64,000 nt of DNA, taken from Escherichia phage ECO07P1. Shown piece by piece: positions 3,140 to 48,685 of the stretch. The stretch's first letter is position 1; every line of letters starts with the position of its first letter. The notes under the pieces are model-generated. The model worked only from the letters and a program-made list of their open reading frames with translations, did not search any database and was not told the origin of the DNA. A program made the position numbers and the translations under genes. The stretch lies in sequence record OP172784; one strand, 5' to 3'.

Positions 3140-3167
3140 TTTTAATCCTCTTTAATATGCTTTAATA

Positions 3168-6308
<3,141 letters not shown>

Positions 6309-44314: not shown

Positions 44315-44872
44315 GTGAGTGAGTCGAAGAGAATCAATATGAAACGATTAGTATTAGAAGTTAGTCCGCTTTTTGGTGAATTGGCTATAGAAAAAGTAAA
44401 TAACATGTATCGTTTGACGCAAGAAGACGATATGCTATATTTTACGCCTAGTGAAATCATTCATTTAACCCAAATTGAAAATCCTTATACTGATAAAATT
44501 GTAAGCATTAATGATGAGCATAAAATTCATTTTTATTCTTTATGCCCAGGATTTAATATTGAAAGCGAGTCAATATGCTTATCAATTAATAATTGGGATA
44601 ATTTTATAACTTACATTAAATATTTTTATTATTCTAATGAAAGAAAACATAGTTTAAAATGGCTTAAAAATTGCAATGCTATTATTACTAACGCTTGCGA
44701 TCAGAATGATGAAACTGTTTTAAGTGTATCAAAATGTTATGAAGAAGGAGATGTCTTAACTATTCGTCAAATTGATGATTTTCGAGCGCATATTGTCACA
44801 TTTACCAAAGATGAAGCTATTGCGTTAAAGACTTATCTTGATTCTGTCATTCCAACTATGATTTCAAAGTGA
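44315..44872 (+). CDS. hypothetical protein, tandem paralog A
   Basis: 185 aa (GTG start after AGGAG; alternative ATG at 44339); shares GFNIE and C-terminal motifs with the next ORF. Confidence 0.55.
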   Translation: MSESKRINMKRLVLEVSPLFGELAIEKVNNMYRLTQEDDMLYFTPSEIIHLTQIENPYTDKIVSINDEHKIHFYSLCPGFNIESESICLSINNWDNFITYIKYFYYSNERKHSLKWLKNCNAIITNACDQNDETVLSVSKCYEEGDVLTIRQIDDFRAHIVTFTKDEAIALKTYLDSVIPTMISK

Positions 44873-45402
44873 GGAAATATGTGTTTATTTCAAGTGAAAG
44901 CGGTTTAATTCGTGTTGAATTTAAAAATGACATCTTCCTTATTCAAGGAGATGATATTATTAAAATGAGTTATGACGAAATCAAGAAAATTTGCCGTGCT
45001 CTTGAAAGTCATGGAAAAGTAAATGCTACTATCGATATAGGTGATTTATGGGTGACACTTTATGAAGTATCCGAAGGATTTAACATTGAAGATGAAAACA
45101 ACATCTTAGCTATTGATAAAAGAAGTGATTTGTTTGATGTGTTAAAAGTTTATGAACAGTCAAACGGTGGAAGAAAAGCTGCATTGATTTATCAAAAACC
45201 ACATTCATGTGGAACTGCTTCAATCATTTCAAATATTGAAGATGAAACTGATACTTATATGTGTGTTTTAAAGGCTGGCGGTGATCGTCATCCGGATTTT
45301 ATTTCTATTCGTCAAAACAATGGAGAAATTTCATTATCAAAATCAGAAGCTGAAGCTATGATTAAGTATTTAACAACTGTTACACCTTCAATGAAAGGAT
45401 AG
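44869..45402 (+). CDS. hypothetical protein, tandem paralog B
   Basis: 177 aa; shares GFNIEDEN and SEAEAMIKYLTTVTPSM with paralog A. Confidence 0.55.
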   Translation: MRKYVFISSESGLIRVEFKNDIFLIQGDDIIKMSYDEIKKICRALESHGKVNATIDIGDLWVTLYEVSEGFNIEDENNILAIDKRSDLFDVLKVYEQSNGGRKAALIYQKPHSCGTASIISNIEDETDTYMCVLKAGGDRHPDFISIRQNNGEISLSKSEAEAMIKYLTTVTPSMKG

Positions 45403-45404
45403 TT

Positions 45405-45866
45405 ATGATTATTAATGAAAGCTCTTGGCACTATAAATTATTCAAAATGTTTAATGATGAATGGAAACGACCTAAGACACTGTGCGCGTATTTTTGGTCT
45501 ATTGTTATTCCTACATTTTTCGTTTCTTTTTTCGGATGTACTATACTCGCAGGTCTAACTATCATCTGCGCAGAAATTATGCAGAAATGGCTTATTTTTG
45601 GTAGTTTATGGACTCTTATTCCATCAGCATTTATACTTGCCATTTTGCTTGTTTTACTTATTATTGGTTCATTTGTTATTCCTGCACAACTGCGTGAAAA
45701 ATATAAAGATTATAAATGGAAAAAGGATTATGCTTTACATGTAGAAAATATTGATAGGGCGTATAAAGGTTTACCTCCTATTCAACCCAAGAAATCTATT
45801 ATCGTCGAATTTTTAAAAACGCGTAAAGCTAAAGTATGTCCTGTTATTGAATATAAGGCTGAATGA
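45405..45866 (+). CDS. two-TM membrane protein
   Basis: 153 aa with two long hydrophobic segments and basic C-terminus. Confidence 0.55.
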   Translation: MIINESSWHYKLFKMFNDEWKRPKTLCAYFWSIVIPTFFVSFFGCTILAGLTIICAEIMQKWLIFGSLWTLIPSAFILAILLVLLIIGSFVIPAQLREKYKDYKWKKDYALHVENIDRAYKGLPPIQPKKSIIVEFLKTRKAKVCPVIEYKAE

Positions 45867-46876
45867 TGAAAACTGTAGTTAAGTCTTATTTTGGTAGTCA
45901 TCTTTATGGAACTTCTACTCCAGAATCTGATGTAGATTTTAAAGAAATCTTTGTTCCTCCTGCTCGCGATATTCTTATCGGAAATGTTAAAGAGCATATG
46001 AGTAAAAATACTAACAACACATCATCTAAAAACACTAAAGATGATATTGACCATGAACTATACAGTCTTAAGTATTTCTTTAAATTAGCAACAGATGGTG
46101 AAACCGTAGCATTGGATATGCTCCACACTCCACCTGAACTGGTAGTTAAATCTGATTTGCCTGATGTATGGAAGTTTATTCAAGACAATCGTTCTCGTTT
46201 TTATACGACTAACATGAAATCCTATTTAGGATATGTCCGCAAGCAAGCTTCTAAATATGGTGTTAAGGGTTCTCGTTTGGCCGCATTACGTGATGTATTG
46301 AAAGTAGTTAATCAAATCCCCGATCAGTGGGTTGATTACCGAGAAGATGGAACACAAGGACAACGTCGTACTAAAATTGCAGATATTAAGCATCGTCTTC
46401 CAGAAAACGAGTTCTGCGAATGGGTATTCCATAATCATGAGAAAACGGGCCCGCAAACGTTCTATACTGTGTTGGGTCGTAAATATCAAACAACGCTTTC
46501 TCTTATTGAGCTTAAGCAGTCTTTGAATAAACTTGATGCTGAATATGGTGAACGTGCTCGTAAAGCTGAAGCTAATGAGGGCATTGACTGGAAAGCACTG
46601 AGTCATGCTTGCCGAGGTGGACTCCAACTATTGGAAATTTACAAAACTGGTGACTTAGTCTATCCACTCCAAGACGCTCCATTTATTCTCGACGTGAAGT
46701 TGGGTAAACATCCATTTAAAACTGTTCAAGAGTTTTTGGAAGATGTGGTCGATCAAGTAGAAGCAGCATCCATTGAAGCTTCTAAGAACGGTATGCAGCA
46801 AAAAGTAGACATGGGTTTCTGGGATGACTTCCTTGAGAGGGTTTATCTTGAAAACCACCGAAGTTATTATAAATGA
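45863..46876 (+). CDS. nucleotidyltransferase-fold protein (Pol-beta-like)
   Basis: 337 aa; N-terminal GS...DxD signature GSHLYGTSTPESDVDF; terminator follows. Confidence 0.55.
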   Translation: MMKTVVKSYFGSHLYGTSTPESDVDFKEIFVPPARDILIGNVKEHMSKNTNNTSSKNTKDDIDHELYSLKYFFKLATDGETVALDMLHTPPELVVKSDLPDVWKFIQDNRSRFYTTNMKSYLGYVRKQASKYGVKGSRLAALRDVLKVVNQIPDQWVDYREDGTQGQRRTKIADIKHRLPENEFCEWVFHNHEKTGPQTFYTVLGRKYQTTLSLIELKQSLNKLDAEYGERARKAEANEGIDWKALSHACRGGLQLLEIYKTGDLVYPLQDAPFILDVKLGKHPFKTVQEFLEDVVDQVEAASIEASKNGMQQKVDMGFWDDFLERVYLENHRSYYK

Positions 46877-46878
46877 TA

Positions 46879-46902
46879 GGGAGCCTTCGGGCTCCCTTTT
46901 TT
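46879..46902 (+). terminator. rho-independent terminator
   Basis: GGGAGCCTTCGGGCTCCC then TTTTTT. Confidence 0.75.
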
Positions 46903-46925
46903 GTTTAAAATGACGTCACAAAGTT

Positions 46926-46955
46926 GTTTACTTCTATCGCAAAGCATATTATAAT
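46926..46955 (+). promoter_or_regulatory. T4-type early promoter
   Basis: CACAAAGTTGTTTAC-N18-TATAAT. Confidence 0.65.
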
Positions 46956-47001
46956 ATATGTGTAGTTAATTAATTGCTCTTTAAAAATTGAGGAGAATAC
47001 A

Positions 47002-47487
47002 ATGCATATTTTAATGCAATGCCTTGGCAACAAAATTAATGATTTTAATCATAAGCGTGTTAATGATTACATTAAAGACAAACTTGAGATTAAAGACATA
47101 CTTTTTAGAGGACTTACAATAGAGGAAGTGCTATCTTATAAGTTTGAAGTTAATAGGAGAATCAAATTTAAAAGAATAACTTCCTTTAGCAGTGAGTCTC
47201 ATATAGCTGAAACGTTTGCTGCAGAACGCTATATGACTAATATTTTAGTAGTGTTAAAAAATGCAAACGTTTTTGACTATTCGACTGCTATGATTGACAT
47301 TTTAGAAAATTTAATCGCAATTGAAGAATCTGGCCAAACTGACGATGATAAGCTTAACAAGCTTTATGATAATCTTTGCATGGTAGATTATGAAAGAGAG
47401 TTTTTACTGCCAATTAATTCTGAGTTAATAGTTAAAAACATATATTTTGATAGCAAAAAGAACATGCATATAGTAGAAATGGAATAA
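47002..47487 (+). CDS. hypothetical protein, stand-alone early unit
   Basis: 161 aa between its own promoter and terminator; weak FRG / SFS / ERE pattern reminiscent of ADP-ribosyltransferases, speculative. Confidence 0.5.
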   Translation: MHILMQCLGNKINDFNHKRVNDYIKDKLEIKDILFRGLTIEEVLSYKFEVNRRIKFKRITSFSSESHIAETFAAERYMTNILVVLKNANVFDYSTAMIDILENLIAIEESGQTDDDKLNKLYDNLCMVDYEREFLLPINSELIVKNIYFDSKKNMHIVEME

Positions 47488-47498
47488 ATCAACACAAA

Positions 47499-47522
47499 GG
47501 GGACCCTAGAGGTCCCCTTTTT
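47499..47522 (+). terminator. rho-independent terminator
   Basis: GGGGACCCTAGAGGTCCCC then TTTTT. Confidence 0.75.
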
Positions 47523-47548
47523 ATTTCAAAAAATTTTTTCACAAAACG

Positions 47549-47578
47549 GTTTACAAGCATAAAGCTTTATGGTACTAT
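47549..47578 (+). promoter_or_regulatory. T4-type early promoter
   Basis: TTTTCACAAAACGGTTTAC-N18-TACTAT. Confidence 0.65.
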
Positions 47579-47615
47579 ACAACTATCAACTACTGATACA
47601 GATTTGGAGAATAAA

Positions 47616-48584
47616 ATGAAAACTGTAACTATCAATAAGGGTATCTACTTCGGTAAAGAAATCTCTGGAACTTTTGAGCTCTTAGGCGAATGGTTCCCAG
47701 ATAATGCTCCGGTAGATGCACAAGGAGATGGTAAAGTTTTTGTTGAAATTGACGGTAAACGTCGCGGTGTTTGGGTTTACAAATCAGATATTTCATATGA
47801 TGGTGTAAAAGTTGAAGAAGTTAAAGAATCATATGAAGATATGAAAACCCGCATTAATAAAAGATTTAATGTTATGGGAATGATGACGAATGGTATTATT
47901 AATGGAAATATTCGTTCATTAATTATCTCTGGCGCAGCAGGTATTGGTAAAACGTATTCTTTAGATAAAGCTTTAAATAAAGCAAATGATAATGGATACA
48001 TTGAATATAAAAGCATTAATGGTAAAATCTCTGGTATTGGTCTTTATGAGCAGCTTTGGAATAATCGTGAAGAGAACTCTGTCCTTTTGATTGATGATGT
48101 GGATGTTTTCTCTGATATGGACATTCTTAATCTTCTAAAAGCTGCTCTGGACACTGGAGAGACCCGTAAAGTCTGCTGGAGCACTGCATCTTCTTACTTA
48201 GAAGAAAAAGGCATTGACCGTGAGTTTGAATTTAAAGGAACGATTGTTTTTATCACAAACGTTGACATTGACCGCGAATTAGACCGTGGTACTAAACTTG
48301 CTCCACACTTACAAGCATTGGTGTCCCGCTCAGTTTATTTGGATTTGGGTGTTCACACTAATGAAGAAATTATGGTCAGGGTTGAAGATGTTATTCTTTC
48401 AACTGACATGATGCAAAAGCGCGGTCTTTCTGATGAAGAAACTTATAAAGCATTATCATGGATGAAAGTCAATGTTAATCGTTTACGCAATGTTTCACTG
48501 CGTACTGCTCTTTATCTTGCTGACTTTATTATGACCGACAAAAACGGTTGGGAAGAAATTGCTGAGGTTACTCTTCTGAAATAA
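47616..48584 (+). CDS. P-loop ATPase
   Basis: Start MKTVTINKG after GGAGAA; Walker A GAAGIGKT, Walker B LLIDDVD. Confidence 0.6.
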   Translation: MKTVTINKGIYFGKEISGTFELLGEWFPDNAPVDAQGDGKVFVEIDGKRRGVWVYKSDISYDGVKVEEVKESYEDMKTRINKRFNVMGMMTNGIINGNIRSLIISGAAGIGKTYSLDKALNKANDNGYIEYKSINGKISGIGLYEQLWNNREENSVLLIDDVDVFSDMDILNLLKAALDTGETRKVCWSTASSYLEEKGIDREFEFKGTIVFITNVDIDRELDRGTKLAPHLQALVSRSVYLDLGVHTNEEIMVRVEDVILSTDMMQKRGLSDEETYKALSWMKVNVNRLRNVSLRTALYLADFIMTDKNGWEEIAEVTLLK

Positions 48585-48685
48585 TTCATAAGAGGACTTC
48601 TATGACAAAAAGGCAGTTCAGAAATAGATTATATGGACTGCCATCAAAAAGATGACTAGAATTAAACTGGTGAATGGAGGTAGTG

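What the first reader, a model, noticed from the sequence alone, without database searches (positions are those of the whole stretch)
47002..47487. Isolated 161-aa early gene with a weak R / S-x-S / E-x-E pattern (possible ADP-ribosyltransferase-like enzyme)
This ORF is a self-contained unit between a terminator plus early promoter upstream and a terminator downstream. It contains FRG, SFSS and YEREF motifs in the order expected for R-S-E-clade ADP-ribosyltransferases (T4 Alt/ModA/ModB class), but the spacing is atypical and the protein is small, so this is speculative. Stand-alone early units of this kind often encode host-modifying or anti-defense enzymes.
Basis: inference. Interest (0 to 1): 0.4.

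Follow-up and report, generated by a model that had tools for sequence, protein, structure and literature searches.

The report
Extra Mod-family ADP-ribosyltransferase early gene
This small early gene of a T4-like phage encodes a shortened third relative of the T4 enzymes ModA and ModB, which tag host proteins with ADP-ribose; the gene is real and probably active, but databases already annotate it this way and nobody has tested it.

The parts
46878..46903 (+). Intrinsic terminator (hairpin AGGGAGCC-TTCG-GGCTCCCT plus T-run) that ends the nrdC.11-homologue transcript. It forms the left boundary of the cassette.
   Evidence: Terminator scan. This sequence is identical to the left half of the single T4 nrdC.11-nrdC.10 intergenic region.
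46916..46955 (+). T4-type early promoter of the ART gene: TCACAAAGTT-GTTTAC (-35 at 46926-46931), 18-nt spacer, TATAAT (-10 at 46950-46955).
   Evidence: Promoter scan, 10 of 12 matches. The extended motif occurs 5 times exactly in the window against 0.02 expected. It aligns with other early promoters in the window. Assignment to the T4 early class rests on the published consensus, cited from my own knowledge.
46990..46995 (+). Shine-Dalgarno sequence GAGGAG, 6 nt upstream of the ATG.
   Evidence: Read from the sequence.
47002..47487 (+). CDS of a 161-aa Mod-family ADP-ribosyltransferase paralogue. The exact protein is GenBank WAX12978.1.
47107..47112 (+). Codons for R36-G37, the catalytic Arg of the R-S-ExE motif. 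It aligns with ModB R73-G74 and ModA R72-G73.
   Evidence: Alignments. The positions are invariant in 36 sequences. ModB R73A is catalytically dead (PMC10468400).
47182..47190 (+). Codons for S61-F62-S63, the equivalent of the STS motif on strand beta-2.
   Evidence: S61 is invariant in 36 sequences. It aligns with the TSTS of the solved arginine-specific ART Vis. The model places it in strand 60-63.
47392..47400 (+). Codons for E131-R132-E133, the ExE catalytic motif at the end of the ARTT loop.
   Evidence: E131 and E133 are invariant in 36 sequences. They align with EQE of ModA and ModB and with the ExE motif of Vis (printed as KEAEV).
47496..47525 (+). Intrinsic terminator of the ART gene (AAAGGGGACC-CTAGA-GGTCCCCTTT plus T-run). 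It forms the right boundary of the cassette.
   Evidence: Terminator scan. T4 has no counterpart. From the T-run onwards the sequence becomes collinear with T4 again.
47539..47578 (+). Early promoter of the downstream nrdC.10 homologue (TCACAAAACG-GTTTAC ... TACTAT). It is not part of the ART unit but forms the right-hand composite terminator/promoter junction.

Best explanation
The gene encodes an active mono-ADP-ribosyltransferase of the phage Mod family (R-S-E clade). It is a third lineage beside ModA and ModB. Host RNA polymerase transcribes it from its own T4-type early promoter in the first minutes of infection. Inferred mechanism: the protein binds NAD+ in the cleft formed by R36 (beta-1), S61-x-S63 (beta-2) and the F91-D-Y93 aromatic motif. 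E133 then catalyses transfer of ADP-ribose, and E131 (ExE rather than QxE) directs it to arginine side chains of one or more host proteins. The gene is an accessory module. It is a promoter-gene-terminator cassette inserted between nrdC.11 and nrdC.10, bounded by composite terminator/early-promoter sequences of the PeSL type, and it is present in only a minority of T-even relatives. Shown here: homology, fold, conservation of the catalytic residues, purifying selection, and the cassette structure and its distribution. Inferred: enzymatic activity, arginine specificity and early timing. Unknown: the target.
For: Sequence: BLASTP gives 30% identity and E 5e-15 to T4 ModB, and 27% and E 8e-10 to ModA, over residues 1-150. 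PHROG 832 'RNA polymerase ADP-ribosylase' matches at E 1.8e-23. hhalign of this clade against ModA/ModB-like proteins gives probability 99.8% and E 4e-28. Homologues carry Pfam PF26816 Mod_ADP_RT.

Catalytic residues: in a 36-sequence family alignment that includes T4 ModA and ModB, the only invariant columns are R36, G37, S61, E131 and E133. A family profile aligns these to the YRG / TSTS / ExE motifs of the solved arginine ART Vis (4xzj, E 0.0046). ModB R73, equivalent to R36, is required for activity (PMC10468400).

Selection: dN/dS is 0.13-0.23 between orthologues. The catalytic motifs are kept in relatives only 52-62% identical.

Expression unit and cassette. T4 has only a 114-bp intergenic region at this site. 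That region equals the window's upstream terminator joined to the window's downstream promoter.
Against: No biochemical or genetic data exist for this protein or any orthologue (literature searches). It lacks the roughly 36 N-terminal residues of ModA and ModB, and this could change or weaken substrate binding. The gene is dispensable: the coding sequence is absent from T4 and was found in only 43 phage records (about 92% of the 523 records sharing its flanks lack it). One carrier, BW-1, has a 1-nt deletion in an A-run that splits the ORF. The structure model rests on only 5 sequences, and the other four models scored pLDDT 72-75. The local Pfam and NCBIfam libraries gave no hit, but they also miss T4 ModA and ModB themselves, so this is uninformative.
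Confidence: 0.8

Rival explanations
1. Counter-defence effector. The enzyme is an active ART, but its selected target is a host immunity or toxin protein rather than RNA polymerase or translation factors. That would make the cassette a mobile anti-defence module. This rivals the best explanation on biological role, not on chemistry.
For: The distribution is sporadic (43 records). The gene is a self-contained cassette in a hyperplastic region. A 61%-identical homologue sits in a different slot, between regA and gene 43, in another T4-like contig. The lineage is distinct, with its own invariant ARTT-loop residues V128-D129-Y130. There is precedent: T4 Alt is involved in Mokosh type I evasion, the screen's volcano plot labels the ModA orthologue, and nrdC.1 in the same region inhibits Septu (bioRxiv 10.1101/2025.11.20.689424). 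AcrIF11 is an ART anti-CRISPR (PMC12421852, listed).
Against: No direct evidence exists. No association with a host or a defence system was tested. Carriers infect ordinary E. coli, Salmonella and Citrobacter hosts. There is no PADLOC-related signal.
Confidence: 0.3
2. Redundant or dosage paralogue. It modifies the same targets as ModA or ModB (RNAP alpha; S1, EF-Tu, trigger factor) and only reinforces host takeover.
For: It belongs to the same family and has the same catalytic signature. It is slightly closer to ModB than to ModA. Databases name it 'RNA polymerase ADP-ribosylase' by transfer.
Against: Identity to ModA and ModB is only 27-30%. It is a separate lineage in the tree. It lacks the N-terminal segment. 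Carriers EP01, HY01 and ACG-C40 already keep intact modA and modB, so a pure duplicate would be expected to decay. Instead dN/dS is about 0.15-0.2.
Confidence: 0.3
3. Different chemistry on the same fold. It acts mainly as an NAD+ glycohydrolase, as an RNAylating enzyme that uses NAD-capped RNA like ModB, or as a nucleic-acid ADP-ribosyltransferase.
For: ModB accepts NAD-capped RNA (PMC10468400). Some R-S-E-fold enzymes modify DNA or hydrolyse NAD+ (my own knowledge).
Against: The ExE motif is typical of arginine-specific protein ARTs (my own knowledge). The closest solved sequence match is the arginine ART Vis. Nothing in the sequence points to nucleic-acid binding.
Confidence: 0.1
4. Inactive remnant or pseudo-enzyme: an N-terminally truncated, decaying copy of a Mod gene.
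For: It is shorter than ModA and ModB by about 36-45 aa. It is frameshifted in BW-1. Most relatives lack it.
Against: All catalytic residues are intact. dN/dS is 0.13-0.23. The 158-162-aa length is conserved in relatives only 52-57% identical (P0003, P0004); the 61%-identical P0002 is called at 181 aa only through a probably spurious upstream start. The gene has its own strong promoter, RBS and terminator. The model is a complete ART core with confident geometry. Other family members also have short N-termini.
Confidence: 0.05

Closest known systems
T4 ModB (NAD--protein ADP-ribosyltransferase and RNAylating enzyme; targets S1, EF-Tu, trigger factor, L2)
   Same: It is the best pairwise match: 30% identity, E 5e-15. 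It shares the R-S-ExE residues with nearly identical spacing (R73/S99/E171-x-E173 against R36/S61/E131-x-E133). It has the same predicted fold. Both are small cytoplasmic phage enzymes.
   Different: The window protein lacks ModB residues 1-36. It belongs to a separate lineage. It lies in a different locus, nrdC.11/nrdC.10 rather than srd-modA-modB. It has its own promoter and terminator rather than sharing an operon with modA. Its targets and any RNAylation ability are unknown.
T4 ModA (ADP-ribosylates both RNA polymerase alpha subunits)
   Same: 27% identity, E 8e-10. The R72-G73, S96-x-S98, F127-N-F129 and E163-x-E165 motifs align with R36-G37, S61-x-S63, F91-D-Y93 and E131-x-E133.
   Different: The differences are the same as for ModB. 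The database label 'RNA polymerase ADP-ribosylase' on this gene is transferred from ModA and is not demonstrated.
Solved R-S-E-clade mono-ARTs: Tre1 (6drh), Vis (4xzj), C3 exoenzymes, VIP2/iota-like toxins, Certhrax, HopU1
   Different: Identity is only 11-19%. The phage protein is smaller, and the region between beta-4 and the ARTT loop forms a two-helix hairpin (residues 93-131). It has no secretion, translocation or immunity partner.
PeSL (promoter-early stem-loop) cassettes of T4-like phages (Arbiol et al. 2010, PMC2839356; Comeau et al. 2014, PMC4122927)
   Same: A composite terminator plus early promoter flanks the gene on both sides. The indel relative to T4 has its junctions exactly in these elements. 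The slot also holds further small ORFs in phage 215Ecol030PP.
   Different: Recombination through these elements is inferred from comparison and was not observed. The papers' own PeSL consensus was not compared base by base.

Membership tests
Mod family of phage ADP-ribosyltransferases (Pfam PF26816 Mod_ADP_RT; PHROG 832) | Significant sequence similarity to ModA and ModB over the whole catalytic domain | tested here: met
   BLASTP E 5e-15 to ModB and 8e-10 to ModA. PHROG 832 E 1.8e-23. hhalign probability 99.8%, E 4e-28. Four homologues at 52-92% identity carry PF26816 as a precomputed label.
Mod family of phage ADP-ribosyltransferases (Pfam PF26816 Mod_ADP_RT; PHROG 832) | Conserved R-G, S-x-[ST] and E-x-E catalytic residues | tested here: met
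   R36, G37, S61, E131 and E133 are the only invariant columns among 36 family members. Position 63 is S or T throughout.
Mod family of phage ADP-ribosyltransferases (Pfam PF26816 Mod_ADP_RT; PHROG 832) | NAD+-dependent ADP-ribosyl transfer to protein | not testable with these tools
   This needs a biochemical assay. It was shown only for T4 ModA and ModB (PMC10468400).
Orthologue of T4 ModA or ModB specifically | Same lineage, same srd-modA-modB locus, and an architecture of about 200 aa with an N-terminal extension | tested here: not met
   It forms a separate clade in the NJ tree. It lies between the nrdC.11 and nrdC.10 homologues. It is 161 aa and starts at the position equivalent to ModB residue 37. 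Carriers have canonical modA and modB as well. It is therefore a paralogue, not ModA or ModB.
R-S-E clade of the ART superfamily (C3/VIP2/Alt-like) | ART beta-sandwich fold with Arg on beta-1, Ser motif on beta-2 and catalytic Glu after the ARTT loop | tested here: met
Arginine-specific ARTs | E-x-E rather than Q-x-E in the ARTT motif | tested here: met
   E131-R-E133 is present and aligns with the ExE of the arginine ART Vis. That ExE implies arginine targeting is established knowledge, not a test; the actual acceptor residue cannot be tested here.
T4 Alt / VIP2 family (head-packaged ART) | Large protein (about 680 aa in T4) that is packaged in the capsid and injected | tested here: not met
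   The protein is 161 aa and consists of a single ART domain. It is expressed from an early promoter, not in a late or head-gene context. Packaging itself cannot be tested here.
PeSL-type mobile regulatory cassette | Gene flanked by composite terminator/early-promoter motifs, with presence/absence polymorphism whose junctions fall in those motifs | tested here: met
   Terminators at 46878-46897 and 47496-47520, and early promoters at 46916-46955 and 47539-47578. The T4 intergenic region equals the left terminator joined to the right promoter. The gene is present in 43 records, against 523 records that share the flanks.

The most novel reading that the evidence does not exclude
The shortened Mod paralogue may have a target set distinct from ModA and ModB. 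For example, it could ADP-ribosylate, or RNAylate, a host immunity or toxin protein. The promoter-gene-terminator cassette would then be a horizontally shuffled counter-defence module that helps set the host range of T2-like phages.
Probability: 0.25. Interest if true: 0.6.

Novelty: new member of a known kind. Interest (0 to 1): 0.27.

Why it matters
T4 is usually described as having three ADP-ribosyltransferases (Alt, ModA, ModB). This gene shows that a subset of T-even phages, including the classic T2, carries another Mod-type enzyme of a separate lineage. It is delivered as a mobile early-gene cassette. Mod and Alt enzymes are now linked to RNAylation and to evasion of host defences. A compact 161-aa paralogue with intact catalytic residues is therefore a convenient candidate for finding new ADP-ribosylation targets, and possibly a minimal scaffold for engineering. 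The identification itself is not new, because public annotation and Pfam already place it in the family. The open questions are the target and the biological role.

Tried and rejected
1. Compensation hypothesis. I asked whether the extra gene replaces a decayed modB, after seeing modB frameshifted in T2 record NC_054931. I rejected this. Carriers EP01, HY01 and ACG-C40 have intact modA and modB. Another T2 record, MH751506, has intact modB, while AP018813 shares the frameshift, so this is a stock polymorphism or a sequencing artefact.

2. Direct sequence search of PDB with the single protein gave nothing. Only the family profile reached Vis, and weakly.

3. The local Pfam-A and NCBIfam libraries gave no hit. 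This is uninformative because T4 ModA and ModB also get none. The relevant Pfam model, PF26816, appears only as a precomputed label.

4. The word-indexed homologue search found only 4 clusters, even with profiles and E <= 10. As a result the AF2 alignment had only 5 sequences.

5. The PADLOC scan found no relation to defence-system proteins.

6. The Rfam scan of 46000-48600 found nothing near the gathering scores; the weak hits sit on the terminators.

7. Literature searches for a characterised third Mod enzyme in T2 or Tequatrovirus found nothing. Tiemann et al. 2004 (PMC523198) is not held.

8. The loose promoter motif count with 2 mismatches was not significant: 6 matches against 3.2 expected. 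The exact motif count is significant.

Full report
**Observation.**
A GAGGAG ribosome-binding site lies 6 nt upstream. The three motifs are present: F35-R36-G37, S61-F-S63-S64 and Y130-E131-R132-E133-F134. Terminator-like hairpins with T-runs lie at 46878-46897 and 47496-47520. The scan found four strand-sites against 0.7 +/- 0.9 in shuffles. A promoter-like site, TTTACT-17-TATAAT, lies at 46927-46955. That promoter belongs to an extended motif, TCACAAANNNGTTTAC, found five times exactly. All five copies are on the + strand, against 0.02 expected. The copies align further, sharing an A/T-rich tract and a TAnnAT -10 hexamer. This matches the T4 early-promoter class, whose consensus I cite from my own knowledge. 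The description of a stand-alone early unit is therefore confirmed.

**Context.**
The window comes from a T4-like phage (Tequatrovirus). Upstream is the nrdC.11 homologue, an RlaP-type nucleotidyltransferase at 45863..46876. Downstream is the nrdC.10 homologue, a P-loop/AAA-like protein whose real start is probably the ATG at 47616. T4 itself has only 114 bp between these two genes. An alignment shows that the T4 spacer equals the window's upstream terminator joined to the window's downstream promoter. Relative to T4, the window therefore carries a ~625-bp insertion consisting of early promoter, gene and terminator. The junctions fall in the T-run/A-tract between a terminator and an early promoter. 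This is the architecture described for PeSL-mediated modular shuffling in T4-type phages (PMC2839356 and PMC4122927).

The coding sequence occurs in 43 of 50,697 phage records, all in Tevenvirinae. They include T2, HY01, ACG-C40, Citrobacter phage Moon and Salmonella phage STML-198. By contrast, 523 records share part of the flanking sequence, so roughly 8% of close relatives carry the gene. The slot is polymorphic. Phage 215Ecol030PP has two further small ORFs after the gene. A 61%-identical homologue sits between regA and the DNA polymerase gene in another T4-like contig, and a 52%-identical one lies downstream of an nrdC.11-like gene.

**What the protein is.**
BLASTP gives 30% identity to T4 ModB (E 5e-15) and 27% to T4 ModA (E 8e-10). 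The match covers almost the whole query and residues ~37-180 of ModA and ModB. PHROG 832, 'RNA polymerase ADP-ribosylase', matches at E 1.8e-23. A profile search of 1.84 billion representative proteins found only 34 relatives at E <= 1e-3, so the family is small. I aligned 36 members, including T4 ModA and ModB. The only invariant columns are R36, G37, S61, E131 and E133, which is the R-S-ExE signature. F72, Y77 and Y93 are nearly invariant.

A profile-profile comparison of this clade with ModA/ModB-like proteins gives probability 99.8% and E 4e-28. The family profile also reaches the solved arginine-specific ART Vis (4xzj, E 0.0046). It aligns LYRG with AYRG, TSFS with TSTS, and ExE with ExE. 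ModB R73, the counterpart of R36, is required for ADP-ribosylation and RNAylation (PMC10468400). The motif spacing is R36-S61 = 25 residues and S61-E133 = 72 residues. In ModB the values are 26 and 74, counted from the sequence.

**Fold.**
AlphaFold2 on a five-sequence alignment gave a top model with pLDDT 88.1 and pTM 0.80. The other four models scored 72-75. In the model, R36 ends strand 29-37, S61-S63 lie in strand 60-63 followed by a helix, and E133 opens strand 133-136. A two-helix hairpin (residues 93-131) precedes the ExE motif.

**Is it functional?**
Nei-Gojobori dN/dS between the window, EP01, 215Ecol030PP and T2 copies is 0.13-0.23. The catalytic residues, and a length of 158-162 aa, are kept in relatives at 52-57% identity; the 61%-identical P0002 is called at 181 aa, probably through a spurious upstream start. 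One carrier, BW-1, has a 1-nt deletion in an A6 run that splits the ORF. This is a pseudogene or a homopolymer sequencing error. Either way the gene is accessory and not essential.

**Relation to ModA and ModB.**
A rough NJ tree places the protein with P0001-P0004 in a clade of its own. That clade is sister to a group of 175-189-aa metagenomic proteins and is separate from the ModA clade and the ModB-like clade. The protein starts where ModB residue 37 aligns, so it lacks the N-terminal segment of about 36 residues. Some other family members also have short N-termini.

The extra gene does not replace the canonical genes. EP01 carries a copy 99.6% identical to the window's gene, and EP01, HY01 and ACG-C40 all keep intact modA and modB at the usual srd-modA-modB locus. 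Moon has one ModB-like gene there. A modB frameshift in two T2 records is absent from a third T2 record, so I dropped the compensation idea.

**Mechanism (inferred).**
Host RNA polymerase transcribes the gene from the early promoter. The protein binds NAD+ through R36, S61-x-S63 and the F91-D-Y93 aromatic motif. E133 catalyses ADP-ribosyl transfer. The ExE form of the ARTT motif predicts arginine acceptors, which rests on established knowledge of R-S-E ARTs and not on a test here. The target is unknown.

Three readings of the role remain open:
- **Redundancy.** It may hit the same targets as ModA or ModB.
- **Distinct target.** It may modify something else, possibly in counter-defence. This is made plausible by the cassette's mobility and sporadic distribution, the clade-specific ARTT-loop residues V128-D129-Y130, and recent evidence that T4 Alt is involved in Mokosh evasion (with the ModA orthologue labelled in that screen) and that nrdC.1 in the same region inhibits Septu (bioRxiv 10.1101/2025.11.20.689424).
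- **Variant chemistry.** It may carry out RNAylation or act as an NADase.

None of these can be separated with sequence tools.

**Comparison with what is known, and novelty.**
The exact protein is already in GenBank as WAX12978.1, 'NAD--protein ADP-ribosyltransferase [Escherichia phage ECO07P1]'. Orthologues are labelled ADP-ribosylase, ModA, modB_2 or 'RNA polymerase ADP-ribosylase' by annotation transfer. Homologues carry Pfam PF26816 Mod_ADP_RT. The Mod family of the R-S-E clade is recognised in the comparative literature (PMC9503650). I found no paper that characterises this paralogue.

It is therefore an uncharacterised member, from a separate lineage, of a known family. It is not ModA or ModB itself and it is not a new kind of system. 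Interest is modest. The open value lies in the unknown target.

**Negative and uninformative results.**
- The single-sequence PDB search was empty.
- The local Pfam and NCBIfam libraries gave no hit, but they also miss T4 ModA and ModB.
- PADLOC gave nothing.
- Rfam gave nothing near the gathering thresholds.

Noticed in passing
L006 (T2 NC_054931.1) 3152-3773; L017 (AP018813.1); L016 (MH751506.1): modB is frameshifted near codon 135 in two T2 records (split into 429-bp and 129-bp CDSs, which removes the ExE motif from the long product). It is intact (624 bp) in a third T2 record. This is a laboratory-stock polymorphism or a sequencing error.
   Followed up: partly
L002 (phage BW-1) 3205-3689: The orthologue of the ART gene has a 1-nt deletion in an A6 run (window position ~47255) and is annotated as two CDSs. 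This is a pseudogene or a homopolymer error.
   Followed up: yes
L012 (phage 215Ecol030PP) 1313-1722: The same nrdC.11/nrdC.10 slot holds two additional small ORFs (150 and 264 bp) after the ART gene. The intergenic site is therefore a hot spot for cassette accumulation.
   Followed up: no
L013 4001-4546 and L014 2946-3491 (Logan contigs): A 61%-identical homologue of the ART gene lies between regA (Translat_reg) and the gene 43 DNA polymerase in another T4-like phage. This is a different genomic slot from the one in the window.
   Followed up: partly
window 27162, 31155, 46916, 47539, 58690 (+): Five exact copies of the extended early-promoter motif TCACAAANNNGTTTAC occur, against 0.02 expected. 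Three of them share the identical variant TCACAAAGTTGTTTAC.
   Followed up: partly
window 47604-48584: The mechanical ORF for the nrdC.10 homologue starts at TTG 47604. Alignment with T4 and T2 and the GGAG at 47606-47609 indicate that the real start is ATG 47616 (322 aa). The protein has only weak P-loop/STAND-like NTPase hits and no known function.
   Followed up: partly
window 44869-45402: This ORF (GTG start) encodes a two-domain y05I-like putative transcription factor (Pfam T4_y05I_N E 1e-32 and T4_y05I_C E 1e-23). T4's mobD homing endonuclease, which lies just upstream of nrdC.11 in T4, is absent from this window.
   Followed up: no
window 45863-46876: The nrdC.11 homologue is an RlaP-type (RNA-repair-pathway DNA polymerase beta family) nucleotidyltransferase, Pfam E 7e-11. 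Some GenBank records mislabel it and its neighbours as 'thioredoxin'.
   Followed up: no
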